Of a stretch of DNA of 64,000 nucleotides, positions 8,621 to 27,918 are shown in pieces. The notes under the pieces were generated by a model, which worked only from the letters and a program-made list of their open reading frames with translations, was not told the DNA's origin and did not search any database. Source of the stretch: a bacterium. Its GTDB lineage: Bacteria; UBA8248. Each line of letters starts with the position of its first letter. Positions within the stretch are counted from its first letter, which is position 1. Location of the stretch: positions 4,160,001 through 4,224,000 of the forward strand of contig OZ242260.1 in assembly GCA_965207065.1 (NCBI GenBank), in the 5' to 3' direction. The position numbers and the translations under genes are program-made.

Positions 8621-8935
8621 ATGGCCGTTACCGCAGTAGTCCGCTTCCCGTTTCCCGATGTTAAAACCGAGGAGGAGTTGATCGCGTCTTTCGAGAGTTC
8701 CTCGGCCCTTTACCGCGACGTACCGGGCCTCTTGCGCAAATACTATCTGATGTCCGAAGACCGCAGGTCAGGCGGCGGGGTCTATATCTTCGAGACGCGC
8801 GCCGACGCCGAGCGGGTCCACGACGAGGTGTGGCGCGCCAGGCTGATCGAACGCATGGGAGTCGAACCCGACGTCCAGTACTTCGACTCGCCCGTCATCG
8901 TCGACAACGAAGCCAGGGCCGCCACCACGGCATAA
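8621..8935 (+). CDS. YdhR-family putative monooxygenase (copy 1)
   Basis: YRDVPGLLRKYY, GGGVYIFET; GGAGG RBS. Confidence 0.8.
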   Translation: MAVTAVVRFPFPDVKTEEELIASFESSSALYRDVPGLLRKYYLMSEDRRSGGGVYIFETRADAERVHDEVWRARLIERMGVEPDVQYFDSPVIVDNEARAATTA

Positions 8936-8946
8936 GGAGGACGTTC

Positions 8947-9264
8947 ATGGCCGTCACCGCAATCGTTCGCTTCACGCTTCCCGAGGGAAAGACCCAAGAG
9001 GAGATGGCCGCGGCCTTCGAGCACTCGGCCCCACTCTACCGCGACGTGCCGGGTCTGGTGCGAAAATACTACCTGGTGTCGGACGACGTGCGCACCGGCG
9101 GCGGGGTCTACCTGTTCGAGTCGCGCGAGGACGCCGAGCGGCTCTATGACGACGCCTGGCGCGCCGGGATACGCGAGCGCCTGGGAGTCGAGCCCACGAT
9201 CGAATACTTCACCTCGCCCGTCATCGTCGACAACGAAGTCGGAGCGATTTCGACAGCGTCCTAG
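8947..9264 (+). CDS. YdhR-family putative monooxygenase (copy 2)
   Basis: YRDVPGLVRKYY, GGGVYLFES; AAGGAGG RBS; paralog of upstream gene. Confidence 0.8.
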   Translation: MAVTAIVRFTLPEGKTQEEMAAAFEHSAPLYRDVPGLVRKYYLVSDDVRTGGGVYLFESREDAERLYDDAWRAGIRERLGVEPTIEYFTSPVIVDNEVGAISTAS

Positions 9265-9364
9265 CGTCTCGGCGATTCGCGCTCTTTTCCTAGCTCGCCC
9301 AGGGGAGGAGATACGTTCGTTCACGTTCCATTGATGGAATGTCCAATTAAAGCCGGGAGGTAGT

Positions 9365-9976
9365 ATGTTCCGGGCCAATGTGCTGACGCTCTACCTCGTC
9401 TTCCTGGTGTTTGCCGTGGGCGGGAGAATCGCGCTTCACTACCTGGCCACCGGAGATCACGGTATACGGACGGTGAAGCCAAGCGCTTCCAGGATAGCCA
9501 AAAGCGCAAGTTTCCTGCTGCTCACCTCATTCATTGCGACGTTCGCTCTCTCAATCCTCGATGCGATTGGAACGGTTCAGCCGCAAGTCGATCTCGGCGA
9601 GTCCGCGAACACGATCGGCGCGAGTATCTCGCTGGCCGGAATCGCGCTCATGGTCGTCTCGCAATACCAGATGGGAGTTTCGTGGAGATTCGGCGTCGAT
9701 CAAGACGAGAAAACCGATTTGGTGATGAGGGGCCTCTACTCGCTCGCAAGGAATCCGATCTATAGCGGCGTGTTCCTGTTCTACATCGGCCTGCTGGTGT
9801 TGCTACCCCACATATTGATGCTGTTATTTATCACCATGACTTGTTTAAGCATCGAGATGCAGGTGCGCTTCGTCGAGGAGCCGCACCTTCGTGACTTACA
9901 CGGCGCTGCTTACGAGAAATACGCCGAGCAGACGGGGCGTTATTTCCCGAGATTCCTTCGCAACTCCGGACGATAG
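9365..9976 (+). CDS. Isoprenylcysteine carboxyl methyltransferase (ICMT/PEMT) family membrane protein
   Basis: LVMRGLYSLARNPIY, EEPHL, YEKY...RYFP. Confidence 0.85.
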   Translation: MFRANVLTLYLVFLVFAVGGRIALHYLATGDHGIRTVKPSASRIAKSASFLLLTSFIATFALSILDAIGTVQPQVDLGESANTIGASISLAGIALMVVSQYQMGVSWRFGVDQDEKTDLVMRGLYSLARNPIYSGVFLFYIGLLVLLPHILMLLFITMTCLSIEMQVRFVEEPHLRDLHGAAYEKYAEQTGRYFPRFLRNSGR

Positions 9977-9985
9977 GGGAATATT

Positions 9986-10801
9986 TCAGCCCACGAGGGC
10001 TTCGAGACGCGCGTAGATATCAGGAGGAAGCGCGCCGCCGCCCGATGCCGCCGCGTTCTCGTTCATGCGGCCCGCCCTTCCAGTGGCGGGAATGACGCTG
10101 GAGACGCGCTCATCCGCGAGAAGGTATTTCAGGAGCGCCTGACCCGGTGTTCCTGAATGGAGTGCTTTCAGTTCCGGCATACGGGCGATACTGCCCCCGG
10201 GGCCAAGCAAGCCGCTCCTCAAGTGACTGAAAGGCCGCATGACGATCACGCCCAGGTTCATCTCCTGCGCCAGGGGCAGTACCTCCTCGCGGCACTGCAC
10301 CTCGCCCAGATAGTAGGGAATCTGGATCGCGTCGTAGGCGTCCGTCTTCATGGCCTCGATGAGTTCGGGGAAATTATCGGGTCTTCTGTCCGTGACTCCC
10401 AGATGGCGGATTCTGCCCTCTTTTTGATACGCCTGCATAACCGGCGTCACCTCGCGCCAGCCCGCCATGTTGTGAATCTGCAAAAGATCGATAACGTCCG
10501 TGCGAAGCCGTTTGAAGGAGCGCTCGATGCTCGCGCGGGCCGCCGATGCGCTCGACTCCCACACCTTGGTCGCCAGGACGATTTTGTCTCTGCTACCTTC
10601 CAGCGCCTCTCCCAGCACCCGCTCGGATTCCCCGTATATCGGCGCGGTGTCGAAGAAATTGATCCCGCAATCCAGGCATTCTCGGACGATCTCGACGCAC
10701 CGGGCGGGTTCGCTGCTCGCCATGTGCATGAAATTGTGCGAAGTGCCGAGGCCGATCTCGCTCACTTCAAGGCCGGTCCTGCCGAGACGGCGATGGTTCA
10801 T
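9986..10801 (-). CDS. Aldo/keto reductase
   Basis: LGRTGLEVSEIGLG, FDTAPIYG, LATK, DLLQIH. Confidence 0.92.
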   Translation of the reverse strand: MNHRRLGRTGLEVSEIGLGTSHNFMHMASSEPARCVEIVRECLDCGINFFDTAPIYGESERVLGEALEGSRDKIVLATKVWESSASAARASIERSFKRLRTDVIDLLQIHNMAGWREVTPVMQAYQKEGRIRHLGVTDRRPDNFPELIEAMKTDAYDAIQIPYYLGEVQCREEVLPLAQEMNLGVIVMRPFSHLRSGLLGPGGSIARMPELKALHSGTPGQALLKYLLADERVSSVIPATGRAGRMNENAAASGGGALPPDIYARLEALVG

Positions 10802-10996
10802 GTTTTACTCCAGGTGATTAACTCGAGCGGCACATTGATGTTTCCTATCCCCGTCCTAACCCAGTACCCAGAAAGCACACAAAGGCGAAATCCTCGACTT
10901 ACAAGCCCCCAATCACGCGTGGATTTTCTGGTGAGGATATCGCCAGGAGAAAAAATCAATAACCTAAGCTTTATCTTCAATCACCTATATAATCCC

Positions 10997-12292
10997 CTAG
11001 TCATCTTCGAAATCGAAATCAGCTTCAGAAAGACCCCTCAATATTTCCCAAACAGCCAGAAAATTGTCGTGTGCTAGATAACCGAATTTTGGCAAATCAT
11101 CACTAAAGTAGATATGATCCATACCCAAATTGTAACAATGCTCCATGTATTCTGAGAAAAGATAGCGCAGCAGACCACATACTCGCGTGCACATATTGTG
11201 ACAAGTGACGCTCTCAAGCATACTTTCTTTGAATCCGCGCCAGTTGGGGAGGCTAATCTCGGGGCTTATTTTGTTTCCGCTTCTATTTTCAAAGAATTCT
11301 TCGAATGCTTTCTGTACGATCCGAATTGCTTGTCCCTGAAACGACGAATACAGATTGTAAAACCAATCTTCTTTTTCATCGAGTTGGTCAGTAAGGGCTT
11401 GAAGAGCACTCAGACGCGATTCTTCGGAAGCACCATAGACTTCCCCTTCATGAATATCCGCATGGAAAAGGCTGAATGGATTGAGTAGACACAAAATAAT
11501 AGTATTTGGATGTGGAAAAAGCGGACAAAGCTCATTCCAGTATTGGCGAGCGTAGACGAAGCCATGAAGGCCGAGAGCCTCCACTTTTTGTGCAATGATT
11601 CCCGTCATAATTTGAAAGGCGTCCTGAGTATAGTCAGGCGGGGTTCCGTCGCCGACCTCTCCTGCATCAATCCATCCATCAATGAGGGGGAAAGAGGCCG
11701 TTACAACCGTGAATGCTTCGTCACCAACGATGGTGTTTTCAATCCAGCGGTAATATAAGTCCCCCGGATAAAACGGCGACAATGAAACAGCGCCTCCATC
11801 TATTGTTGGTGTCAAAGCCAGAATGTTCTTATGGTTTATGATAAGTTCTTGCGCCAAGGCATCTCTGATACTTCTTCCCGTCATCGGAGCTACTAAAATT
11901 GATGATAGGCTTGACTCAGATAAAGATGGAAAAAGTGTGCAAAAGTGATTGGCATAAGAAAGAAGTTGAGTAAAAGCTTGGCGTTCCGTCTGGGTTGATT
12001 TTTTGAGTTCAATGATCACAAGACCACCGTCTTCTTCATAGTGACCTAGGAGATCGATCCTTGTTGTCGTATCCCCATCGCGCACCAGACATATCTCTTT
12101 TCCGTCCAGTGACAGTAACTCCAGACGTTTTACAAAGTTACAAATTCGCTTTTCAGTTCTTATGCGCAAAAGGTCTGATATCCTTAGAAACTCATCAGTT
12201 TTGAAGGGAGCAGGATTTTGGTGTTCAATCAATTTATAAATGTTGTTTTTGTAGTTCTTGAATAAAAAATCTCTCAGATCATTCTCTTTCAT
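10997..12292 (-). CDS. Hypothetical protein with N-terminal PD-(D/E)XK (NucS-like) nuclease motif, low GC
   Basis: RIDLLG...VIIELKK...QLLSY motif; AT-rich codon usage. Confidence 0.65.
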   Translation of the reverse strand: MKENDLRDFLFKNYKNNIYKLIEHQNPAPFKTDEFLRISDLLRIRTEKRICNFVKRLELLSLDGKEICLVRDGDTTTRIDLLGHYEEDGGLVIIELKKSTQTERQAFTQLLSYANHFCTLFPSLSESSLSSILVAPMTGRSIRDALAQELIINHKNILALTPTIDGGAVSLSPFYPGDLYYRWIENTIVGDEAFTVVTASFPLIDGWIDAGEVGDGTPPDYTQDAFQIMTGIIAQKVEALGLHGFVYARQYWNELCPLFPHPNTIILCLLNPFSLFHADIHEGEVYGASEESRLSALQALTDQLDEKEDWFYNLYSSFQGQAIRIVQKAFEEFFENRSGNKISPEISLPNWRGFKESMLESVTCHNMCTRVCGLLRYLFSEYMEHCYNLGMDHIYFSDDLPKFGYLAHDNFLAVWEILRGLSEADFDFEDD

Positions 12293-12322
12293 TCCTTCTC
12301 CTTGGCCAACATTCCCTTCTTT

Positions 12323-13009
12323 TCAACCCCCCGATACTCTCGCCAGAATCTCGCGGTAGCCCTCATACACCGCCTCCCCGTAGGCAGGCGGGGCGTGGAC
12401 CTCGGTGAGCTTCCCGCCCTCTATCGTCTTATCCGAAGCGTACGGGTTGAAGACGGCTTCCCCGCCCGGGAAAATGAGGGTGGGGCTGGTCATCGGCATG
12501 TCCTCTTCGTCCCTCAGGCGCATGGCTTCTCTGTAGTCATCCATCACGCCCTCCTCGTATGCGCCCGATTCCAGGTCTGCGCGCACTTTGGAGCCATCGA
12601 GACCCGCTTCTCCCGCCATCTCGCAAAGAACCGCGTCCTCATCCACGCGTTTTCCCTCGTAGAAGAAACCGCGCCTGATCGCGAGATCGTAGACGCGCGC
12701 CTTTTCGGGGTCCTGCGCGTATGCGCTCGCGTAGGCCTGAAAGGCGCGGATGGTTGTCCTCAGGTATTCCTCGTGCGGCCAGCTTCTGCACGGCGAGAGC
12801 GGCTCCTGAACCGCTATCAGGGGCCATTCCTGATCCACGATGTAGCGCGGCGCCGGGCGGTCGTTGATGACCTCCAGCGGAAATGCGCGCCATTTGAGAT
12901 GCAGTTTGTCCTCGAACTCGGGCATCACCTTGTCCAGCCGCGCCGCGGCCATATACGCCCAGGGTCAGTGGTATTCGTGAAAAATCTCGACAACCGCCGT
13001 ATCCGCCAT
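12323..13009 (-). CDS. DsbA/FrnE-family thiol oxidoreductase, probable selenoprotein (UGA at 12965-12967)
   Basis: Frame reads MADTAVVEIFHEYH-UGA-PWAYMAAARL...; UGA aligns with the Cys of the CPW motif; later SPTLIF cis-Pro loop. Confidence 0.8.
12936..12950 (-). promoter_or_regulatory. Candidate bacterial SECIS hairpin
   Basis: GGCCGC-GGC-GCGGCU stem-loop starting 15 nt after the UGA; loop begins with G. Confidence 0.4.
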
Positions 13010-13158
13010 CTCATGCCCTCACTCGCAAGAAGTCTTATGATGAAATCAGGACGGGAAGCATTCTCTCCCCTCCCCGATGATTTACACCCCGGATTCATCG
13101 AGGGCAAGTTGTTTCCCAACCACCTCTGCCTCATGCGCTCGATAAAAGCTGTGGTATC

Positions 13159-13602
13159 ATGCCGAAAATCATGGAGACCGCCGGAATGAACCCTGAGGAT
13201 CAGCTACTCGCCACCATACTCGCAGGCGCCGAGACCATCGCCGTGATCGGTCTATCGGTCGACCCCTCGCGCACGAGCCACCGAATCGCCTCGTATATGC
13301 AGGAGGCGGGTTACCGGGTCATCCCGATAAATCCCGGAATCGAATCCGCCCTCGGCGAGAAGGCCTATCCCAGCCTGGGCGAAGTCACCGAGCGCATCGA
13401 CATCGTGAACGTCTTCCGGCGTTCCGAGGAGATACCCGCTCTTGTGGATGACGCCATCGAGAAGCGCCCGCGCGTCTTCTGGATGCAAAAGGGCATCGCC
13501 CATCCCGGCTCCGCGCGCCGCCTGGAGGATGCGGGCATCACGATGATTCAGAACCTCTGCATCAAGACCGCCCACCGGGAACTCACGCAAACCCCTCGAT
13601 GA
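13159..13602 (+). CDS. CoA-binding protein (YccU-like)
   Basis: IAVIGLS, GYRVIPINP, DIVNVFR, WMQKG. Confidence 0.9.
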   Translation: MPKIMETAGMNPEDQLLATILAGAETIAVIGLSVDPSRTSHRIASYMQEAGYRVIPINPGIESALGEKAYPSLGEVTERIDIVNVFRRSEEIPALVDDAIEKRPRVFWMQKGIAHPGSARRLEDAGITMIQNLCIKTAHRELTQTPR

Positions 13603-13663
13603 GAATGGGCCGCTGCGAATCTCGCAAAAATTCCATCGCTACCTGCTCCTCGGCGCAGGCGCT

Positions 13664-14446
13664 TTGTTGGTCGTGGGAATGTTTGGATTTTTAGAGAATT
13701 TCCTGCTCTATCATCCCTACCGGGAAATCGAGGTCACGCCCAAAACCTATCGAATCGCGTATGAGGACGTCTCCTTCAACGCAGAAGACGGCGTGCGCCT
13801 GCACGGCTGGTACGTCGCGCCCAAAGACCCGGACGGTCCGGTGCTCCTGTGGACGCACGGCAACGCGGGCAACCTCTCCCACCGCGCGGAGAACATCGCG
13901 CTCATCCAGAAAGAACTGGGAGCGGGCGTCTTTATCTTCGACTACAGAGGATACGGGCAAAGCGAGGGACGACCGAGCGAGGAGGGCTTATACGCAGACG
14001 GCAGAGCCGCGTACGCGTGGCTCATCGAGCGCGTGCCGCACGAGCGCATCTTCTTGTTCGGGCGCTCCCTGGGCGCGGCCGTGGTGGTGAAGCTCGCCGT
14101 GGAAGGAAAGAAAGCGCGCGGCCTGATTCTCGAGAGCCCCTTCGAGAGCACCCTCGCCATGGGCAAGAAGATGTTCCCCTTCCTGCCGGTGGGGTGGCTC
14201 ATCTCCGCAAAATTCGACAGCGCGGCCATGATACCCAAAGTGAAGACCCCCCTATTCGTCCTGCATGGGGATAAGGACGGAATCGTCCCCTACGCGCAGG
14301 GGCTACGGCTCTTCGAGGCGGCGGGCTCAAAACACAAGCGGTTTTTCACCATCAAGGGAGCGGGCCACAACGACACGTATTACACCGGGGGCGCGCCCTA
14401 CTGGGCGGCGTGGCGGGAATTTCTGGGAAATCCCGAGTCAAGGTGA
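13664..14446 (+). CDS. Alpha/beta hydrolase (BEM46/ABHD13-like); start uncertain
   Basis: HGNAGN, DYRGYG, GRSLG, HGDKD, GHND. Confidence 0.9.
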   Translation: MLVVGMFGFLENFLLYHPYREIEVTPKTYRIAYEDVSFNAEDGVRLHGWYVAPKDPDGPVLLWTHGNAGNLSHRAENIALIQKELGAGVFIFDYRGYGQSEGRPSEEGLYADGRAAYAWLIERVPHERIFLFGRSLGAAVVVKLAVEGKKARGLILESPFESTLAMGKKMFPFLPVGWLISAKFDSAAMIPKVKTPLFVLHGDKDGIVPYAQGLRLFEAAGSKHKRFFTIKGAGHNDTYYTGGAPYWAAWREFLGNPESR

Positions 14447-15244
14447 ATCGGGAGTCGGACCCGTCTTCCTGGCCCTGCGCCTCGATCGAAACTCCTGCAG
14501 CAGCCTTTCATGATGCACGCTCGTGAAGAAATTCTCGACGAACGAGTTCACCGGATGGTTGATGAGGTTCTCCGGCGTATCGACCTGGACGATCACGCCA
14601 TCACGCATCACGGCGATTCGGTCGGCGATCTGAAACGCATCCGTCAAATCGTGCGTCACCAGCAGGCTGATCGCCCCGATCTCGTCGTGCACACGTCTCA
14701 ATTCTTTTCTGACCTCGAGCCTCGCGACCGGATCGATGTTCGCCAGAGGCTCATCGAGAAGAAAAACCTGCGGGGGGATGGCGATGGCGCGGCCGATGGC
14801 GACTTTTTGCTGCTGGCCCGCGCTCAGGCTGTCCGGACTGCGGCGGGACCATTTTTTGCTGATCCCCAAACGCCGCATCACGTCCTGGGCGCGCTCGTTC
14901 AGGATGCCCGGCAACCAGCGGCGGATTTTGAGCGCGAAGCTCAGGTTCGAGTATTTCTTCTCGTCAAAAACCTTCATGTGCGGCCAGAGGGCGTAGCTCT
15001 GGAACACGAGCTGCACCCCGCGCCTTCCGGGCGGGATGCCGTTCAGCCGAACGCCATCGAGGTAGATATGGCCCGCATCTTCATCCTCCACGCCGGCGAT
15101 GAGGCGTAAGAGCGTCGATTTCCCGCAGCCCGTGGGACCGACGAGCACCATGAACTCCCTGTCCTCGAGCGCCAGGGAAAGGTTGTCGACCGCGCACACG
15201 TCGTCGAAATCTTTCTTGAGTCCCGTAACAGTCAGACGGCTCAT
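14438..15244 (-). CDS. ABC transporter ATP-binding protein (MalK-like)
   Basis: GPTGCGKST Walker A, LSAGQQQ signature, LLDEP, VTHD. Confidence 0.9.
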   Translation of the reverse strand: MSRLTVTGLKKDFDDVCAVDNLSLALEDREFMVLVGPTGCGKSTLLRLIAGVEDEDAGHIYLDGVRLNGIPPGRRGVQLVFQSYALWPHMKVFDEKKYSNLSFALKIRRWLPGILNERAQDVMRRLGISKKWSRRSPDSLSAGQQQKVAIGRAIAIPPQVFLLDEPLANIDPVARLEVRKELRRVHDEIGAISLLVTHDLTDAFQIADRIAVMRDGVIVQVDTPENLINHPVNSFVENFFTSVHHERLLQEFRSRRRARKTGPTPDSP

Positions 15245-15261
15245 GCCTCTCTCCGGTTCTT

Positions 15262-15618
15262 TCAGTCCTTCGGCGCGAGTTCGTTCAGCTTCTCGACGCC
15301 CGGCGTGAAGATTTCCTCCAGCACGAGCGGCCCATCGCCCGCGTTTCGCGTGGAGTGCTCCTGGTTCGGCGGAAAAACCACGACGCCGCCCGGCCCGAGC
15401 TCCACCTCTTTCCCACCGCACGTGAACCTAGCCCGTCCCTCCAGAACGATCGTCATCTGCTCGTTGGGATGCGAATGGGGGTTGTACATGTCCACGCCGG
15501 CGCGAATCGTCTGGCGAAGCACGGTCAGGCGCTCGCCCGCCACCACTCTCTGGATCCGCTCGCCGGTATCGTGCGCTGCCATCTCTTCGAAATGATAGTG
15601 TTTCACGCTCTTCTCCAC
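15262..15618 (-). CDS. Cupin domain protein
   Basis: PHSHPNEQ and PPNQEH cupin motifs. Confidence 0.88.
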   Translation of the reverse strand: MEKSVKHYHFEEMAAHDTGERIQRVVAGERLTVLRQTIRAGVDMYNPHSHPNEQMTIVLEGRARFTCGGKEVELGPGGVVVFPPNQEHSTRNAGDGPLVLEEIFTPGVEKLNELAPKD

Positions 15619-23305: not shown

Positions 23306-23380
23306 TCCGGCGTAGCTCAACGGCAGAGCAATCGGCTGTTAACCGATGGGTTGTAGGTTCGAATCCTACCGCCGGAGCCA
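23306..23380 (+). tRNA. tRNA-Asn (GUU)
   Basis: TCCGGCG acceptor stem, TAGCTCA D-arm, ATCGG-CTGTTAA-CCGAT anticodon arm, GGTTCGAATCC T-arm, encoded CCA. Confidence 0.97.
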
Positions 23381-23405
23381 AAGTTCTTTGTGGTTTATCC
23401 CACAC

Positions 23406-23756
23406 TTACGCTTCATACGCCTTCGAGACGAAATCCGAGAGCGCCTCTTTCACGAGGGCGTTCATGCTCCGGCCACGCAGGGCTGCAATGCGGGCGATTT
23501 GCTCATGAAGTTCCGCTCCCGGTCGAACGTTGAATGAACCGCTATAGGGCTTGTTCGGCGCGATTCCTTCAGTCTTGCACGTTTCCAGATAATCATTCAC
23601 TGAATCCTGAAACGCTTTCTTCAACTCTTTGGCGGTCTCAGCTTCGTACGTAATCAAATCACGCACATGGAGCACCTTGCCATGCAAGATTTCGCTTTCC
23701 TCGTCATATTCAATGGATCCCTGATAATTCTTGTACCTCAATACCGCTCCGATCAT
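23406..23756 (-). CDS. hicB: HicB-family antitoxin
   Basis: YKNYQGSIEY, VNDYLETC, KPYSGSFNVR RHH tail. Confidence 0.9.
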   Translation of the reverse strand: MIGAVLRYKNYQGSIEYDEESEILHGKVLHVRDLITYEAETAKELKKAFQDSVNDYLETCKTEGIAPNKPYSGSFNVRPGAELHEQIARIAALRGRSMNALVKEALSDFVSKAYEA

Positions 23757-23818
23757 CTTTGGCCCCTTTCCATCCTCGTGATCAAATCTGTTTCCCTGCA
23801 TTTCCCTTCAGATGAATT

Positions 23819-24073
23819 TCACAACAAACCACCTTCCTCCAACTTCTTTCTTACCTCGCGTATGATATATGGCTTCAACTTGTCTTCGGCATGGGGTTGG
23901 TGAAGGAAAATCCGGGGAGCCAACGAGTGAATGAACTTTCGCCGGGAGCCACCCGTTCTTCCTCCCATTGACTGCCTATAACCCAACCCCTCCAATAACA
24001 GAACCAATTCGTTCCAAGTGAAATTCTTCGGATTCTTTCTGAATTTATTCAGCAGCTTTTCGTGTTTGCTCAT
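23819..24073 (-). CDS. hicA: HicA-family toxin
   Basis: FTWNEL, GGSRRKF, LHQPH, KPYII; upstream of hicB. Confidence 0.88.
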   Translation of the reverse strand: MSKHEKLLNKFRKNPKNFTWNELVLLLEGLGYRQSMGGRTGGSRRKFIHSLAPRIFLHQPHAEDKLKPYIIREVRKKLEEGGLL

Positions 24074-24126
24074 TGTTCCCTTGTCAATTTATCAGCAGAA
24101 CAAACATTATGACGCACCTATTATTC

Positions 24127-24177
24127 AGTTGCATTATAGAGCAAACTTGCGGGAATGCAACTATATTATCGTTGCAT
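24127..24177. promoter_or_regulatory. Candidate HicB operator palindromes
   Basis: AGTTGCATT/AATGCAACT inverted pair and ATGCAAC-N9-GTTGCAT upstream of hicA. Confidence 0.45.
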
Positions 24178-24317
24178 AGATATTCAAGCGTGGATATTCA
24201 ATTTACAAATCAGGGATACTTAGACTCGACCCGGAACAACGACGAGCGCGAAAGAAAATTCTATATGGGACACTCACCCCACACTACTGGTACTTTCCTT
24301 CTTCCAGTCGATTCCCC

Positions 24318-25445
24318 TCAAACGCCGCTTTTCGCTTCCTCCAGGGTAGCGACGTTCCTCGGGTGCGCATTGCGGCGGCGCTTGTCGACGCGGATTTGCA
24401 GGCGCGCTGCATCGGTGGGACTCAGGCCCGCTTCCTTCAGTTCGCTCCGGCTGAACCCCTTACCGGGCCGCCAGTTCCCACGGCCATCTCTTACGAGAGG
24501 GAGGTATCCGTTATCCGAGGGCTCTTCCGGCTGCACCAGAGGCGCTTCGGCGGCCACCGGGCCAGCCTCCTGCGCGCGCTCTTCGGGGATATCCGGTTCA
24601 GGTGTTGTCGCCTCCACGGCGCTTTCGGCTACCTCCGAGACGGCTTCTTCGTTTTCGAGTGGTAGTTCTTCCTTATCCGGCGACTCTTCCGGCGAGGCTT
24701 CCGATTCCGTCTCGGTCAGCGTCTCGAGATCGAGTCCATCTTCCTCATACGGCGCTGCATCACTCTGCGGCAACGGCTCATGCGGCGAGACATCCTTGAC
24801 CGGCGCCTCCGGGGGTTCCTCGGCCCCCTGAACGATATCGTCCATGGCTTCCGGATCACTCTCTTGAGGAGTTTCCGTCTCGGGCGGGGAAGTCTCAACA
24901 ACGCTTTCGAGCTGGAGTTCTTCAACTTCCTGAACAGGATCGTCCGCAGCTTCCGGATCGATTGCTTGAGAGAATCCCGGCTCGGGCGCAGACGCTTCCG
25001 CTACACTTTCCGCTGCGACTGAGAGTGCTCCATCATCTTGCTCAGACGTCTCCGCCTCACCCGGCGACGCTTCTGATTCCGTTTCGGTCAGCGAATCGAG
25101 TTCGAGGCCATATTCCTCGAACGGAGCGGCTTCAAGAGATGGTTCCGGCGCATCCGGCGTCTCATCCGAGACCGGCGCCGTCAATGATTCCAGGGCGGGG
25201 GCAGGACCGCTATCACCAGCGTCCGCTCCGTTTGCCGAATCCATGCGCGGCGGCTCATCGGCAGCCAGCAGTTCCAATTCTTGATGAGAGTCATAGCCGC
25301 TGTCCTCCGTATCTCCCGCCGTATAGGGAACTCCCGGCTCGATGGCCGAAGGAGGCGGAATTTCGTAAGTTTCTTCTTCCGGCTCGGCAGAGGTGGAACC
25401 CTTGCGACGCGTCATACGGCTCAAAAAATTTTTTCTCATGATCAT
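24318..25445 (-). CDS. Acidic low-complexity protein with C-terminal eL13 (L13e)-like domain
   Basis: C-terminus RPGKGFSRSELKEAGL...IRVDKRRR..H..NV.TL; E/P/A/S-rich repeated N-terminal region. Confidence 0.72.
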   Translation of the reverse strand: MIMRKNFLSRMTRRKGSTSAEPEEETYEIPPPSAIEPGVPYTAGDTEDSGYDSHQELELLAADEPPRMDSANGADAGDSGPAPALESLTAPVSDETPDAPEPSLEAAPFEEYGLELDSLTETESEASPGEAETSEQDDGALSVAAESVAEASAPEPGFSQAIDPEAADDPVQEVEELQLESVVETSPPETETPQESDPEAMDDIVQGAEEPPEAPVKDVSPHEPLPQSDAAPYEEDGLDLETLTETESEASPEESPDKEELPLENEEAVSEVAESAVEATTPEPDIPEERAQEAGPVAAEAPLVQPEEPSDNGYLPLVRDGRGNWRPGKGFSRSELKEAGLSPTDAARLQIRVDKRRRNAHPRNVATLEEAKSGV

Positions 25446-25660
25446 GCCGCCCTCTTTGAGGTCAAAACCCGTTACGTGGAAAAATTAACGTCCAGATATT
25501 GCAGGGGCGGTAAAAGATGGGAGCAAACCAACATTTTCAGACTAGCGATTCCAAAGACTTTGTGTCAAGCGGCGCGCGTGTGCAGATGGGCCAGGGCGAC
25601 CACACAAAAGGGGAATCAGCGGAGACCGAGCGAGCATCACTTGTTCAAACCGAATACGGG

Positions 25661-25978
25661 CTACACATCCTTTTGATAGATCGTTTGCAGGTCTCGCTCG
25701 AGATCTTCGAGGTCGTATTGCACCGGCGTTTTGCGGGTGCGCGCATAGTCCATCATTTCCCACAGGGAAACCCCCGCATCGCGGGCGGCCCGCGCGAGGG
25801 TCACCTTCCCGTCCCCGTACAGGCGGGCGTAGTGCTCCAGCTTCCACTGACGGACTGCGCTCGACAGCAGCTTTCGCAGGGTGGTCGACCGGTCGGACTG
25901 CTCCACGTTCTCGATGAGTTCCAGTTCGCGGATCAATTCCAGGGGAAGCCTCGCACCCACCATTCGTTCTTTTTTCAT
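25661..25978 (-). CDS. UPF0175-family antitoxin-like protein with N-terminal RHH
   Basis: LYGDGKVTLARAARDAGVSLWEM, YDLEDLERDL. Confidence 0.82.
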   Translation of the reverse strand: MKKERMVGARLPLELIRELELIENVEQSDRSTTLRKLLSSAVRQWKLEHYARLYGDGKVTLARAARDAGVSLWEMMDYARTRKTPVQYDLEDLERDLQTIYQKDV

Positions 25979-26490
25979 CTCTTCCCCTCTCGTGCAATTC
26001 TCAGAACTTCCGCCACCACGGACGGGGAAAGCCACAAAAATTGAGTGATATCCTGAACCGTGACTTCCAGTTTCTCCAGGTCGAGATGTCCACGCATGTA
26101 CGCTTCCAACAATGCGCCGATGGTGCCCAAGTGTTCAATTCCCGCAGCGGCGGCCACGCTGCGTGCTTCTTTGTCATCAACGAGCAGATGCAAGCTTCGC
26201 ACACTCGCAAGCGCGATGGATTCAGTCTCCCCTTGATCAAGCCGGGAACGAGCACCTAGTTGCTGCAACAGGTTCTGCTCTTCAGAAGTCAAACAAACCG
26301 TCTGCAGCCAACCATCTTCCATTGCGGCTTCGAGCTGCTCCACACCCAAGGCGCGAACAACCTTGCCGGCATCGATTGTTTCCTCCTTCACTACAGGCCC
26401 TATCAACACCTCATCGTAGAGTTCTTTCAAGAGCCTCAGCCGACCAACCTTGGCAAATACGATCAAAGGGGAGGCATCGGCTACGATCAT
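25975..26490 (-). CDS. DUF3368-type PIN domain protein
   Basis: IVADASPLI, LDQGETESIALA, LVDDKEAR, GTIG. Confidence 0.87.
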   Translation of the reverse strand: MIVADASPLIVFAKVGRLRLLKELYDEVLIGPVVKEETIDAGKVVRALGVEQLEAAMEDGWLQTVCLTSEEQNLLQQLGARSRLDQGETESIALASVRSLHLLVDDKEARSVAAAAGIEHLGTIGALLEAYMRGHLDLEKLEVTVQDITQFLWLSPSVVAEVLRIAREGKR

Positions 26491-26615
26491 TCTCCCTCCT
26501 GAAGGACATCACACCAAGTCATTGCAATATGATAACAAATTATACTTTTGTTTACAATATGGCTGCACACGTCCCATCCTGCCTGCTGCTCAGCAAAGCG
26601 ACTGCTCTCTCCTTC

Positions 26616-27377
26616 TCATCCCACCTCACCCGCGAGTTCCTCGGCGGTTTTGATGATGAGTTCGATGTCCGCATCCCGCGAGAGACGGTGGCCGCCGTCC
26701 TTGACGAGGGTCAGGCGAACGTCGTCGCCTTTCAAGGCCCTCGCCAATTTCAGGGAAACCTCCCAGGAGACGGTCTCATCGGCCATTCCGTGGATGAGGC
26801 GCACCGGGCATGTCACATCGATCTCGCCGCGCAGGAGCAGGTGGTTGTCCCCCTCATCGAGCAGCTTTTTGGTGACGCGGTACGGCTCCTCCCAGATGTT
26901 GGGCGCGTGCATGACGAATCCGCGCTCGTCGAGTTCTCTCCGCATCTGCTCGGTGAGCCTGTGCTTCTTGAAGCCCGCCGTGAAATCAGGGCCCGACGCT
27001 ATGCCCACCAGGCCCTTCACGCGTTCGGGTCGGGCGAGTGCGGCGAGCAGCATCATCCAACCGCCCATGCTGGAACCCACGAGCACCTGGGGACCCTGCG
27101 CGACTTCGTCCAGCACCGCGAGGGCGTCCCCCGCCCATTCGCCGATGGTTCCGTCCTCGAAATTACCCGAGGATTCCCCGTGTCCGCCGTAATCGAAGCG
27201 GACGTAGGCGCGGCCCACTTTCCGGCAATGGGCTTCGAGCGCGCTCGCCTTCGTCCCGCTCATGTCCGAACGGAACCCGCCCAGGAACATCAGGCCGGGC
27301 GATTCGCCTTCCAGACGGAACCAGGCGAGCGAAGTCCCGTTCTCCCTGTGCAGAAACTTTGATGCGGAGTCGGACAT
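26616..27377 (-). CDS. Alpha/beta hydrolase (ABHD10-like)
   Basis: GFRSDMSGTKA, GSSMGG, GHRLSR. Confidence 0.88.
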   Translation of the reverse strand: MSDSASKFLHRENGTSLAWFRLEGESPGLMFLGGFRSDMSGTKASALEAHCRKVGRAYVRFDYGGHGESSGNFEDGTIGEWAGDALAVLDEVAQGPQVLVGSSMGGWMMLLAALARPERVKGLVGIASGPDFTAGFKKHRLTEQMRRELDERGFVMHAPNIWEEPYRVTKKLLDEGDNHLLLRGEIDVTCPVRLIHGMADETVSWEVSLKLARALKGDDVRLTLVKDGGHRLSRDADIELIIKTAEELAGEVG

Positions 27378-27384
27378 TTTCGTT

Positions 27385-27918
27385 TCAGGATGAATTGTTG
27401 AGATGTTCGAGCAACTGCGCGGCGACGCCGCGGACGGCGGCTTCCGCTTCCTCGTCCACGCAACGCCCATCCTCGTCGAAGACGTTGTGGACGCTCCCGA
27501 CCGAGGCCTGGCCGGGCAGAACCTCTCCGCCGATGTGGGTGAGAATCTGTCTCAGGTGCGCGAGGGCGTTGTCCGCACCCGGCCCCATCGCCACGCCGAA
27601 TATGGCGATGGTCTTCCCCTCGAAGGTGGAGGGATAGCCCAGGTTGTCGATCGCCAGCTTGAGCGTGCTGCTGATGCTGCCGTGGTACTCGGGCGTCGCG
27701 ATGAGGATGCCCGCCGCCTCCGTGACGAGTTGCTTGAGCATATCGGGGTCTTTCGAGTCGCTCGGCTGCCCGGGCAGGGGGAGATCGAGTTCGCCCAAGT
27801 GGATGCGGTTGATCTCGAAACCACCCTTTCCCAACTCATCGAGCGCGAGCGCAAGGGCTTTATCGGTATTGTTTTGCGGCCGGCGGCTGCCGCCGAAGAC
27901 GAGTATATAGGGGGTCAT
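27385..27918 (-). CDS. NADPH-dependent FMN reductase
   Basis: GGSRR, TPEYHGSISSTLKLAID. Confidence 0.9.
   Translation of the reverse strand: MTPYILVFGGSRRPQNNTDKALALALDELGKGGFEINRIHLGELDLPLPGQPSDSKDPDMLKQLVTEAAGILIATPEYHGSISSTLKLAIDNLGYPSTFEGKTIAIFGVAMGPGADNALAHLRQILTHIGGEVLPGQASVGSVHNVFDEDGRCVDEEAEAAVRGVAAQLLEHLNNSS

What the first reader, a model, noticed from the sequence alone, without database searches (positions are those of the whole stretch)
24318..24506. Bacterial protein ending in an archaeal/eukaryotic ribosomal protein eL13-like domain
Seen: the last ~62 aa of the 24318-25445 ORF read WRPGKGFSRSELKEAGLSPTDAARLQIRVDKRRRNAHPRNVATLEE. Known: the core of eL13 (L13e) follows R.GRGFS..EL..AG......A..LGI.VD.RR....EENV..L; eL13 belongs to eukaryotic and some archaeal ribosomes and is not part of the bacterial ribosome. 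Inference: a captured RNA-binding ribosomal module fused to ~310 aa of acidic disordered sequence and repurposed (RNA/ribosome binding, or an autoinhibited nucleic-acid binder). It lies between two toxin-antitoxin modules next to tRNA-Asn in clearly bacterial context.
Basis: partly seen in the sequence, partly recalled or inferred. Interest (0 to 1): 0.85.

Follow-up and report, generated by a model that had tools for sequence, protein, structure and literature searches.

The report
Bacterial acidic protein with eL13-like tail
A bacterium from a sponge-associated lineage carries a very acidic, mostly unfolded protein that ends in a true copy of the core of the archaeal/eukaryotic ribosomal protein eL13, a module that in other bacteria caps the partner protein of an anti-phage helicase.

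Summary
ORF 24318..25445(-) encodes 375 aa. Its last ~65 residues match Pfam Ribosomal_L13e above the curated cut-off, match the archaeal L13e NCBIfam model, match solved eL13 chains by sequence, and fold like eL13 in a model built from bacterial sequences only (VIA Z 7.6-9.6 for eight eL13 chains, next Z 2.3). The other ~310 aa are polyanionic (net -84), predicted disordered and hold an internal duplication. It is not an assembly chimera: the gene sits at the same tRNA-Asn site in four related genomes and in an independent metagenome contig.

The eL13-like module is also the standard C-terminal end of a large unannotated bacterial family. That family sits directly upstream of a compact DruE (Druantia) helicase in 11 of 11 metagenome loci with downstream DNA, and in two genomes of this same genus, one at the same tRNA-Asn site. 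Some of its members carry S17, S6 or NusB modules instead.

I read the window protein as a core-less, DruE-less offshoot: a nucleic-acid-binding eL13-like domain tethered to a polyanionic tail. The function is inferred, not shown.

The parts
24318..25445 (-). Whole ORF, 375 aa plus stop (P0001). It has a basic N-terminal peptide, a polyanionic disordered body and an eL13-like C-terminal domain.
24321..24521 (-). eL13-core-like domain, residues 309-375: a beta-hairpin, two short helices, the basic 'VDKRRRN.H' stretch and a C-terminal helix. The stop codon is at 24318-24320.
   Evidence: Pfam 33.9 bits against cut-off 24.9. NCBIfam E 3.9e-13. PDB phmmer E 6.2e-7. AF2 pLDDT 80-95 over this part. 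VIA Z 7.6-9.6 to eight eL13 chains, rmsd 1.8-2.7 A, 64-67 residues aligned. dN/dS median 0.24.
25398..25445 (-). N-terminal basic peptide, residues 1-16 (MIMRKNFLSRMTRRKG). The first 20 aa carry net charge +6. It is conserved across the family (R10 and K15 invariant).
   Evidence: a short helix at residues 8-11 in the AF2 model, at low confidence
25260..25397 (-). Conserved N-proximal linear motifs, residues 17-62 (YEIPPP.AIEPG and ELELLA), within otherwise disordered sequence.
   Evidence: Invariant or nearly invariant columns P30, P31, P32, A34, I35, L57, E58, L59, A61 in 46 family members
24918..25196 (-). Acidic repeat unit 1, residues 84-176 (contains APFEEYGLELDSLTETESEASP).
   Evidence: Local self-alignment score 193 against 73 +/- 9 for 200 shuffles
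24522..24824 (-). Acidic repeat unit 2, residues 208-308 (contains APYEEDGLDLETLTETESEASP).
   Evidence: Relatives run from 218 to 541 aa. Repeat-length variants appear in contigs of run X3 (table 5).
24263..24284 (-). Terminator-like hairpin followed by a T-run, 34 nt after the stop codon.
   Evidence: consensus scan only; 1 site found against 2.3 expected from shuffles, so weak
23306..23380 (+). tRNA-Asn (GTT), one border of the variable site.
   Evidence: In genome G007 the ORF called for the DruE-partner protein begins with the same residues as the window reading frame (23346-23537) that overlaps the tRNA-Asn gene.
23406..24073 (-). HicB (23406-23801) and HicA (23819-24073) toxin-antitoxin pair; low GC (0.48-0.49).
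   Evidence: Absent at this site in L004 and L006; HicA is skipped in the X11 contig.
25661..26490 (-). UPF0175-family ORF (25661-26035) overlapping a possible PIN-like DUF3368 ORF (25975-26490).
   Evidence: UPF0175 E 7.5e-10; DUF3368 E 0.0055, below cut-off
26616..27470 (-). Alpha/beta hydrolase gene, the other conserved border of the variable site.
   Evidence: orthologues flank the site in L003-L006 and in G007

Best explanation
The gene encodes a cytoplasmic, mostly disordered polyanion whose only folded part is a C-terminal domain homologous to the conserved core of ribosomal protein eL13.

Shown:
- the homology and the fold;
- the disorder prediction and the charge;
- the restriction to one genus among the genomes searched;
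- purifying selection on the domain;
- a stable chromosomal position at a tRNA-Asn variable site;
- the same domain as the normal C-terminal end of a large bacterial family that sits directly upstream of a compact DruE (Druantia-type) helicase.

Inferred:
1. The eL13 core was recruited, probably from archaea, into that defence-associated family as a nucleic-acid-binding end module. In the same family it alternates with S17 and S6 modules, and in some members a NusB module sits just upstream of it.
2. The window protein is an offshoot of that family. It keeps the family's basic N-terminal peptide, acidic disordered arm and eL13-like end, but has lost the ~450-aa globular core and the DruE partner.
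3. It works as a nucleic-acid binder (single-stranded DNA or RNA) through the basic 'GKGFS...VDKRRRN.H' domain (net +7). The -84 tail masks that domain in cis or competes with nucleic acid for basic partners, so binding would be gated.

My odds: eL13 homology about 0.97; kinship with the DruE-partner family about 0.7; the gated nucleic-acid-binding mechanism about 0.35. The confidence figure given for this explanation (0.5) is for the whole package.
For: Homology and fold:
- Profile and sequence matches.
- AF2 model from an alignment that included archaeal sequences: pLDDT 80.7. The top 50 Foldseek hits are all chains of ribosome or pre-ribosome entries, TMq 0.54-0.69; those also listed are named eL13.
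- AF2 model from 46 bacterial family members only: residues ~311-375 at pLDDT 80-95, and 244 of 375 residues below 50.
- VIA-align against 48,161 chains: 13 reach Z >= 2. The top 8 are eL13 chains (Z 7.6-9.6); the next best scores Z 2.3.

Charge and repeats.

Family and distribution:
- 86 close relatives of 218-541 aa, with conserved termini.
- PF01294 found in 17 of 22 other genomes of the genus and in 0 of 38 genomes outside it.
- A second copy in the same genome.

Selection: dN/dS on the last 62 codons has median 0.24 over 45 pairs of 10 genes.

Synteny and assembly.

Link to the DruE-partner family:
- The domain lies within 12 residues of the C-terminal end in 91 of 120 listed members, and is split by an insert in 8 more.
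- A DruE-like gene lies directly downstream on the same strand in 11 of 14 metagenome loci. The other 3 end within 281 nt.
- The same holds in G007 and G009 of this genus: PADLOC DruE E ~1e-154; Pfam DEAD + Helicase_C + MZB.
- All 11 long-form ORFs with their 3' end present, plus the G007 ORF, end in the domain.
- In G007 the pair sits in the same interval, between tRNA-Asn and the alpha/beta hydrolase.
- In 83 long forms the first 30 aa are net basic in 75% and the rest before the core is net acidic in 80%.
- Alternative end modules: S17 E 2.4e-30, S6 30.1 bits, NusB E 2e-27.

Literature (passages read): E. coli DruH binds ssDNA at its fifth Ig-like subdomain and C-terminal domain (10.64898/2026.05.12.722862).
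Against: - No experiment or direct computation here shows nucleic-acid binding or autoinhibition.
- AF2 places no confident contact between the tail and the domain: pLDDT is below 57 everywhere outside residues 311-375.
- Only the C-terminal ~42-110 residues align between the window protein and long forms. The likeness of the N-terminal arms is one of character (charge pattern), not demonstrable homology.
- In G007 the long form is on the opposite strand relative to the flanking genes, so a simple in-place deletion does not explain the short form.
- The window genome has no DruE: best helicase match E 3e-6. Of the 17 genomes with the short form, 16 gave no DruE match at E <= 1e-20.
- E. coli DruH belongs to another family (YjiT). 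The long forms gave no Pfam hit in their core, so the transfer of function from E. coli DruH is by position only.
- S17, S6, NusB and eL13 all bind ribosomal or ribosome-linked RNA, which fits the ribosome-directed rival equally well.
- The S17 end rests on one protein cluster.
- Evidence of expression is thin. One RNA-library contig covers only 25421-25681, and DNA carry-over is not excluded.
Confidence: 0.5

Rival explanations
1. Ribosome or rRNA-directed factor. The eL13-like domain docks on bacterial rRNA or on ribosomes, as eL13 does in archaeal and eukaryotic large subunits. The acidic arm then projects from the particle, as a tether, a hibernation or shielding factor, or a recruiter of basic partners.
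For: - The residues conserved across archaeal eL13 are kept in the bacterial domain: G31, D55, R58 and N65 invariant, and R27, G29, F32, S33, E36, G41, A47 and R57 nearly so, in 65 sequences.
- The fold match covers the whole eL13 core.
- In the related long family the end module can be S17, S6 or NusB, all proteins of the ribosome or of rRNA transcription.
Against: - eL13 has no place in bacterial ribosomes (established knowledge). PF01294 gave no match in 14 control genomes.
- The gene is absent from 5 of 22 genomes of its own genus and from all 38 searched outside it, so it is no core ribosome part.
- It lies in a variable site with toxin-antitoxin genes, not in a ribosomal operon.
- The module's main bacterial partner is a DNA helicase of a defence system.
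Confidence: 0.2
2. Polyanionic mimic or decoy. The active part is the acidic arm, which would imitate nucleic acid and soak up basic DNA- or RNA-binding proteins of phages, of the nucleoid or of a defence system. The eL13-like end would serve only to place it.
For: - Net charge -84 over ~290 aa, with 30% Asp+Glu.
- Repeat number varies between relatives and within populations, as expected under changing selection.
- It lies in a variable, defence-type site.
- Long forms also carry acidic arms, down to -99.
Against: - Known DNA mimics such as Ocr are folded with ordered charge arrays (recalled, not tested). This arm is predicted disordered.
- The most conserved parts are the two termini, not the arm.
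- The gene is chromosomal and syntenic rather than phage-borne.
Confidence: 0.15
3. Decaying remnant of a DruE-partner gene, still an open frame but without function.
For: - No core and no DruE.
- The second copy lies among transposase genes.
- The repeats are unstable.
- Expression evidence is thin.
Against: - Intact ORFs in 17 of 22 genus genomes and in 86 protein clusters.
- dN/dS 0.24 on the domain.
- Invariant residues in both termini.
- Same position in four related genomes.
Confidence: 0.1
4. Assembly chimera or archaeal contamination.
For: None found, apart from the archaeal affinity of the domain itself.
Against: - The genome is a single 4.48-Mb contig.
- The gene has the same flanks in L003-L006.
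- A 4,842-nt short-read contig of run X1 spans 23325-27000 without a difference. X1 may be the source sample, so this is not independent.
- A 6,998-nt contig from a different study (X11) carries the gene between the same neighbours with 84 differences over 2,690 nt.
- GC of the gene is 0.57-0.62 against 0.60-0.66 in the flanks.
Confidence: 0.01

Closest known systems
Ribosomal protein eL13 (L13e) of TACK-type archaea and eukaryotes, e.g. chain 9e6q_AH of the Pyrobaculum calidifontis 50S subunit
   Same: - The conserved core, with the motifs 'GRGFS..EL..AG...A..L.I.VD.RR...H..N'.
- 39% identity and rmsd 1.8 A over 64 residues to 9e6q_AH.
- 32-59% identity to stand-alone archaeal proteins of 55-129 aa.
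- Where such proteins carry organism names they are archaeal (4 of 10 clusters named).
   Different: - Only the core is present: Pfam positions 62-98 of 180, NCBIfam 27-73 of 83.
- It is the tail of a 375-aa polyanion, not a small basic protein.
- The host is a bacterium.
- It is confined to one genus among the genomes searched and lies in a variable site.
- It scores below the NCBIfam equivalog cut-off (48.8 against 96 bits).
Unannotated 'long form' family (about 550-1000 aa; P0094, P0096, P0098, P0341 and others) encoded directly upstream of compact DruE helicases, i.e. in the DruH position of a Druantia type III-like pair
   Same: - The same eL13-like C-terminal domain: 52% identity to the copy in G007 of the same genus and 62% to P0094.
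- A basic N-terminal peptide followed by an acidic disordered arm.
- In G007 it occupies the same interval between tRNA-Asn and the alpha/beta hydrolase.
   Different: - The window protein lacks the ~450-aa conserved core ('PELICRR...GHFIVIAP...PRIWWRL') and the Ig-like domain.
- It has no DruE neighbour, and no DruE was found in its genome.
- Its acidic arm is longer and built of ~95-aa repeats.
DruH of E. coli Druantia type III-A (YjiT family)
   Same: - Gene position of the long-form relatives: immediately upstream of DruE in a two-gene unit.
- An Ig-like subdomain plus C-terminal domain forms the ssDNA-binding site in E. coli DruH (passages of 10.64898/2026.05.12.722862). The long forms likewise end in an Ig-like domain plus the eL13-like module.
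   Different: - No sequence relation found: no Pfam hit other than Ribosomal_L13e for the six proteins scanned, none in the core region of those, and no PADLOC hit for 7 long forms.
- The DruE here is ~1,400 aa with no PLD domain reported by Pfam. That resembles the type III-B described in passages of 10.64898/2026.05.13.724758.
- I could not compare with III-B DruH sequences.
Nucleic-acid binders gated by their own acidic tails (HMGB1 acidic tail, sigma-70 region 1.1, Hfq C-terminal tip); recalled from general knowledge, no call
   Same: A basic nucleic-acid-binding domain joined to a polyanionic disordered segment in one chain.
   Different: The tail here is far longer (about 290 aa, net -84) and repetitive. 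No interaction was shown.

Membership tests
Ribosomal protein eL13 (Pfam PF01294 / NCBIfam NF008914) | Profile match above the curated cut-off | tested here: met
   Pfam 33.9 bits against 24.9 for the whole protein, 37.9 bits for the last 70 aa
Ribosomal protein eL13 (Pfam PF01294 / NCBIfam NF008914) | Full-length match, i.e. equivalog score for archaeal L13e | tested here: not met
   NF008914 scores 48.8 bits against a cut-off of 96 and covers positions 27-73 of 83. The Pfam match covers 62-98 of 180.
Ribosomal protein eL13 (Pfam PF01294 / NCBIfam NF008914) | Fold of the eL13 core | tested here: met
   VIA Z 7.6-9.6, rmsd 1.8-2.7 A, 64-67 residues aligned to eight eL13 chains; the next hit scores Z 2.3. 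Foldseek agrees.
Ribosomal protein eL13 (Pfam PF01294 / NCBIfam NF008914) | Small basic stand-alone protein of an organism with an archaeal or eukaryotic type ribosome | tested here: not met
   375 aa; net charge -84 in the body. Bacterial genome and flanks. Found in one genus only among those searched.
Ribosomal protein eL13 (Pfam PF01294 / NCBIfam NF008914) | Incorporated into the large ribosomal subunit | not testable with these tools
   Needs sedimentation, mass spectrometry or cryo-EM
DruE-partner 'long form' family | Conserved ~450-aa core (alignment A2: PELICRR, GHFIVIAP, GRFFxRVYD, LPRIWWR) | tested here: not met
   P0094 matches the window genome only through its residues 579-687 and 610-687. 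BLASTP against P0341 aligns only the C-terminal 42 residues.
DruE-partner 'long form' family | eL13-like domain at the extreme C-terminus | tested here: met
DruE-partner 'long form' family | DruE helicase gene directly downstream | tested here: not met
   Downstream of the window gene lie HicA and HicB. No DruE in the genome: best match E 3.1e-6 over 90 residues.
DruE-partner 'long form' family | Basic N-terminal peptide followed by an acidic disordered arm | tested here: met
   Window protein: +6 in the first 20 aa, -84 after. Long forms: basic first 30 aa in 75% and acidic remainder in 80% of 83. This is a likeness of character, not alignable homology.
DruH of Druantia type III (YjiT family; PADLOC DruH) | Match to DruH or YjiT profiles | tested here: not met
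   PADLOC gave 0 families for P0001. Pfam gave only Ribosomal_L13e.

The most novel reading that the evidence does not exclude
Bacterial anti-phage systems of the Druantia III kind have repeatedly borrowed ribosomal and ribosome-linked RNA-binding proteins as interchangeable sensor or targeting ends of the DruE partner. The borrowed parts are archaeal-type eL13, bacterial S17 and S6, and NusB.

The window protein would then be a free-living version of that end piece. It would be an eL13-like RNA or ssDNA reader on a giant polyanionic leash that acts without any helicase, for example by seizing phage or ribosomal RNA, or by gating access of basic proteins to it. That would be a new class of defence-derived regulator and a rare case of an archaeal/eukaryotic ribosomal protein domain working in bacteria.
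Probability: 0.2. Interest if true: 0.85.

Novelty: new variant of a known kind. Interest (0 to 1): 0.62.

Why it matters
eL13 is treated as a marker of archaeal (TACK) and eukaryotic ribosomes. A 2011 survey counted no bacterial Pfam hit (table read in PMC3056875).

Here its core is shown to be alive in bacteria, under purifying selection and outside the ribosome. Its main bacterial home appears to be the uncharacterised partner of compact DruE helicases, where it alternates with S17, S6 and NusB modules.

This gives three things:
- a concrete handle on what the variable partner of Druantia III-like systems recognises;
- a warning that database names such as 'ribosomal protein L13e' on bacterial proteins are misleading;
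- a natural minimal construct, the domain plus a polyanionic arm, for testing what the module binds.

In the paper library searched, I found no text linking Druantia with L13e or eL13 and none describing bacterial L13e-domain proteins. Subscription journals and supplements were not visible to me.

Tried and rejected
- The repeat finder failed on my strand argument. Tandem Repeats Finder on the DNA found only a 12-nt, 2.3-copy array. The ~95-aa duplication was found at protein level instead; my first self-BLAST printed nothing.
- PADLOC and PHROGs gave nothing for the window protein. PHROGs hits of the long forms were to Ig-like parts of virion proteins only.
- The ESM Atlas gave no usable hit for long form P0098.
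- A profile of the long forms against PDB sequences found only eL13 chains through the end domain, and no DruH.
- The domain tree is poorly resolved: 106 rows, 74 columns, 5 of 103 branches starred. It shows only that the short acidic family is one group (98*, together with the fragment P0115). A single clade of all 56 fused bacterial domains is not rejected (p-AU 0.46), which does not prove one origin. Several 'stand-alone' rows were fragments of bacterial proteins. 31 'other' rows were left out, and the groups were subsampled to 10, 50 and 45 rows plus the window protein.
- For dN/dS, 5 of 14 loci (L005, L011, L012, L013, L015) were dropped because my start-finding pattern failed.
- The only promoter-like site near the start overlaps the ATG, so it is not a credible promoter for this ORF. 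A TTGACA about 120 nt upstream was seen by eye only.
- RNA run X20 covers only 25421-25681 on this gene (plus 23596-23655 and 26307-26455 in the flanks); nothing can be said about the rest of the gene from contigs.
- The 449-aa ORF after DruE in G007 has no counterpart in the other 15 loci.
- I considered the zinc-uptake genes (an ABC-3 gene and a short ABC ATPase ORF) beside the second copy as a hint of metal binding by the acidic arm. I dropped this: that copy sits among transposase genes and the link is not seen at the window locus.
- I did not run complex prediction. The full-length model showed no confident tail-domain contact, so a pass seemed unlikely, and a failure would say nothing.
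Full report
**1. The observation**

- Pfam Ribosomal_L13e (PF01294) matches residues 325-361 to profile positions 62-98 of 180. The score is 33.9 bits against a curated cut-off of 24.9 (E 3.7e-8); on the last 70 aa alone it is 37.9 bits.
- The archaeal L13e model of NCBIfam (NF008914) matches residues 324-370 to positions 27-73 of 83. E is 3.9e-13 and the score 48.8 bits, below its equivalog cut-off of 96 because only the core is present.
- phmmer against all PDB chain sequences puts eL13 of the Pyrobaculum calidifontis 50S subunit first (9e6q_AH, E 6.2e-7), followed by dozens of eukaryotic eL13 chains.
- A weak hit to IcmE/DotG in the same list comes from its 'AGFSxxELK' repeats. It warns that the first half of the motif alone is not diagnostic.
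- PF01294 found nothing in 14 well-known control genomes.

**2. Fold**

I made two models.

- First model: the last 76 aa, with an alignment of 65 sequences that included stand-alone archaeal-type proteins. Mean pLDDT was 80.7. The top 50 Foldseek hits in the PDB were all chains of ribosome or pre-ribosome entries, with TMq 0.54-0.69 and 28-41% identity. Those that also appear are named eL13.
- Second model: the full-length protein, with an alignment of 46 members of the bacterial family only. It does not lean on archaeal sequences. Residues ~311-375 have pLDDT 80-95, and 244 of 375 residues are below 50.
- VIA-align of the second model against 48,161 representative chains gave 13 chains with Z >= 2. 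The top eight are eL13 chains (Z 7.6-9.6, rmsd 1.8-2.7 A, 64-67 residues, 28-43% identity). The ninth scores Z 2.3.

The C-terminal domain is an eL13 core by sequence and by predicted fold.

**3. The rest of the protein**

- The first 20 residues carry net charge +6. Residues 21-312 carry net -84 (21.6% Glu, 8.6% Asp, 14% Pro). The last 63 residues carry +7.
- Residues 84-176 and 208-308 are a duplication. The local alignment score is 193, against 73 +/- 9 for 200 shuffles.
- Relatives range from 218 to 541 aa.
- In 46 aligned relatives the invariant or nearly invariant positions lie in three places: the N-terminal ~60 residues (R10, K15, P30-P32, A34, I35, L57-L59), the 'YG' of the repeat motif, and the C-terminal domain.

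**4. Is it an artefact?**

No.

- The genome is a single contig of 4.48 Mb, 96% complete.
- In four related genomes (L003-L006) the gene lies between the same neighbours. L003 and L005 also keep HicAB and the UPF0175 ORF (L003 also the DUF3368 ORF); L004 and L006 lack them.
- A 4,842-nt short-read contig of run X1 covers 23325-27000 without a difference. X1 may be the source sample, so it is not independent.
- A 6,998-nt contig of a sponge-metagenome run from another study (X11) carries the gene between the same tRNA-Asn and hydrolase flanks, with 84 differences over 2,690 nt and with HicA skipped.
- Contigs of run X3 show repeat-length variants inside the acidic region (all).
- GC of the gene (0.57-0.62) is close to that of the flanks (0.60-0.66). 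The HicAB segment is at 0.48-0.49.
- The flanking genes are ordinary bacterial genes: DctM, an NAD-binding protein, an alpha/beta hydrolase, an FMN reductase and a luciferase-like monooxygenase.

**5. Distribution**

- The word-indexed protein search returned 86 relatives, and 85 of them carry a precomputed PF01294 hit. Three are named 'ribosomal protein L13e' by NCBI on bacterial metagenome bins.
- In whole genomes, PF01294 was found in 17 of 22 other genomes of the window's genus. It was found in none of 38 genomes outside it: 14 of the same family, 2 of the same order, 7 of the same class and 15 others.
- The window genome holds a second copy (384 aa) at 2.26 Mb. It lies between zinc-uptake ABC genes, three transposase genes and an ankyrin-repeat gene.
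- dN/dS on the last 62 codons has a median of 0.24 (dN 0.126, dS 0.539) over 45 pairs of 10 genes; 5 of 14 loci were dropped.

**6. The module elsewhere**

An exhaustive HMMER search of 1.84 billion representative proteins with the last 76 aa gave 316 hits at E <= 1e-3.

With an HMM built from alignment A1, 137 of the 140 newly listed hits matched:

| Class | Count |
|---|---|
| <= 135 aa | 59 |
| >= 500 aa, domain at the very C-terminus | 44 |
| 136-499 aa, domain at the C-terminus | 25 |
| Other | 9 |

- The small ones are archaeal eL13 where names exist. Four of 10 clusters looked up carry organism names, all archaeal (Bathyarchaeota twice, Verstraetearchaeota, a 'Thermococci' bin). One more is named L13e without an organism, and five have no name.
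- The long ones form a large family with a conserved ~450-aa core and an Ig-like domain. None of those I scanned had a Pfam hit in the core or a PADLOC hit.
- Of the 120 members listed, 99 carry the eL13-like domain. In 91 it lies within 12 residues of the end, and in 8 it is split by a ~65-aa insert.
- Among the other 21, Pfam recognises a complete S17 domain (P0251, E 2.4e-30) and an S6 domain (P0244, 30.1 bits against 27; P0242 weaker). Two members have a NusB domain just before the eL13-like end (P0229 E 2.1e-27, P0204 E 1.4e-20). Other end types were not recognised.

**7. The link to Druantia**

- In the window's phylum (51 genomes held), two genomes of the same genus that lack the short protein, G007 and G009, have a long form.
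- In both, the next gene on the same strand is a ~1,400-aa helicase with DEAD, Helicase_C and MrfA Zn-binding domains. It matches the PADLOC DruE models at E ~1e-154.
- In G007 the pair occupies the same interval as the window gene, between tRNA-Asn and the alpha/beta hydrolase, but on the other strand relative to the flanks.
- In 14 metagenome loci found with the long-form alignment, a DruE-like gene follows directly on the same strand in 11. In L040 only the first ~138 residues match, and L034 and L036 are cut by contig ends. The remaining 3 loci end within 281 nt of the match.
- All 11 long-form ORFs whose 3' end is present, and the one in G007, end in the eL13-like domain. In G009 the domain lies in another reading frame at the 3' end, which is a frameshift or a sequencing error.
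- DruE was found in 3 of 23 genomes of the genus: full-length in G007 and G009, and a weak partial match in G010. The window genome has none.

From the papers I read passages only.

- E. coli DruH (type III-A) is a 1,119-aa protein. It binds ssDNA at the interface of its fifth Ig-like subdomain and its C-terminal domain (10.64898/2026.05.12.722862).
- It is assigned to the YjiT family and proposed as the infection sensor (10.64898/2026.05.12.724681).
- A subtype III-B has a more compact DruE without PLD domains (10.64898/2026.05.13.724758).

The long forms are therefore DruH-position partners of a compact DruE. They are not members of the YjiT-type DruH family by any test I could run.

**8. 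Reading**

The window protein shares three things with the long forms:

- the end domain: 52% identity over 42 residues with the G007 copy, and 62% with P0094;
- the pattern of a basic N-terminal peptide followed by an acidic disordered arm;
- the chromosomal hot spot.

It lacks their core and DruE.

I take it to be a core-less, helicase-less offshoot kept by selection in one genus. Because the strand differs from G007, a simple in-place deletion is not the route.

The end modules found in the long family (eL13 core, S17, S6, NusB) have RNA or single-strand binding in common. The one DruH studied biochemically uses its C-terminal part to hold ssDNA. The most economical mechanism for the window protein is therefore nucleic-acid binding by the eL13-like domain, modulated by the polyanionic arm. 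No step of that mechanism was shown here, and a ribosome-directed role remains a live rival.

**9. Origin**

- The bacterial domains are closest to archaeal eL13.
- A tree of 106 domain segments is poorly resolved. It does not reject one clade for all bacterial fused domains (p-AU 0.46) and cannot give a direction of transfer.

**10. Limits**

- Supplements of papers were not available, and the Druantia preprints may classify partner families there.
- Expression rests on one RNA-library contig over the 5' end.
- The taxonomic name of the lineage is not known to me. NCBI labels on two relatives disagree (Rhodospirillaceae, Nitrospinae).
- Runs labelled sponge metagenome hold part of the stretch (word share 0.42-0.43). 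Of these only X11 was laid on it.

Noticed in passing
L025 (G007:C1:2380000-2399000) 8959-15202; L026 (G009:C10) 8742-15498; metagenome loci L032-L045: A large unannotated family (about 550-1000 aa: basic N-terminal peptide, acidic arm, ~450-aa conserved core, Ig-like domain, eL13-like end) sits directly upstream of compact (~1,400 aa) DruE helicases. This looks like an undescribed partner family of a Druantia III-like two-gene system.
   Followed up: partly
Proteins P0251, P0244/P0242, P0229/P0204: In the same family the C-terminal module can be a complete bacterial-type S17 domain or an S6-like domain. In two members a NusB domain precedes the eL13-like end. The family thus swaps RNA-binding modules of ribosomal origin. 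Other end types (a basic coiled helix in P0265-like proteins; P0253, P0261, P0296) are unrecognised.
   Followed up: partly
Proteins P0232, P0236, P0238, P0239, P0250, P0257, P0282, P0294: In eight long forms the eL13-like domain is split by an insert of about 65 aa ('RFRLKR.VW...VARLSYRGKHIVTC'). The insert lies between the GFS..EL..AG half and the 'ID.RRRS.H' half.
   Followed up: no
window 23380-26616, compared with L025 8900-17950: The interval between tRNA-Asn and the alpha/beta hydrolase is a variable site with alternative cargo in one genus. The cargo is HicAB + short acidic protein + UPF0175/PIN-like here; the short protein alone in L004 and L006; and long form + DruE + a 449-aa ORF + a nucleoside transporter in G007.
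   Followed up: partly
L018 (G000:C1:2254000-2273000) 9982-11136 (-): The second copy of the acidic eL13-like protein (384 aa) is flanked by IS110, DDE_3 and IS1595-type transposase genes and an ankyrin-repeat gene. A zinc-uptake ABC-3 permease gene also lies nearby, whose ATPase neighbour is only 149 aa and possibly truncated.
   Followed up: partly
window 24692-25163: Contigs of run X3 show length variants inside the acidic repeats: one skips 24692-25057, and one goes back 55 nt at 25163/25109 with 257 extra letters. This suggests repeat-number polymorphism in natural populations (table 5).
   Followed up: no
L026 10786-11232 (+): In G009 the eL13-like end of the long form is encoded in a different frame from the main ORF (8742-11132). 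This is a frameshift or a sequencing error.
   Followed up: no
window 23500-24499: The HicAB segment has a much lower GC (0.48-0.49) than its surroundings (0.57-0.66), as expected for recently acquired DNA.
   Followed up: no
window 25975-26035: The UPF0175 ORF and the upstream DUF3368/PIN-like ORF overlap by 61 nt as called from the first start codons. The true starts are probably further in.
   Followed up: no
P0001 residues 54-61 and 110-121, 231-243: The acidic-hydrophobic motifs 'ELELLA' and 'EEYGL(D/E)L(D/E).L' recur. They are among the few conserved positions of the disordered arm, so they are candidate short linear binding motifs.
   Followed up: no
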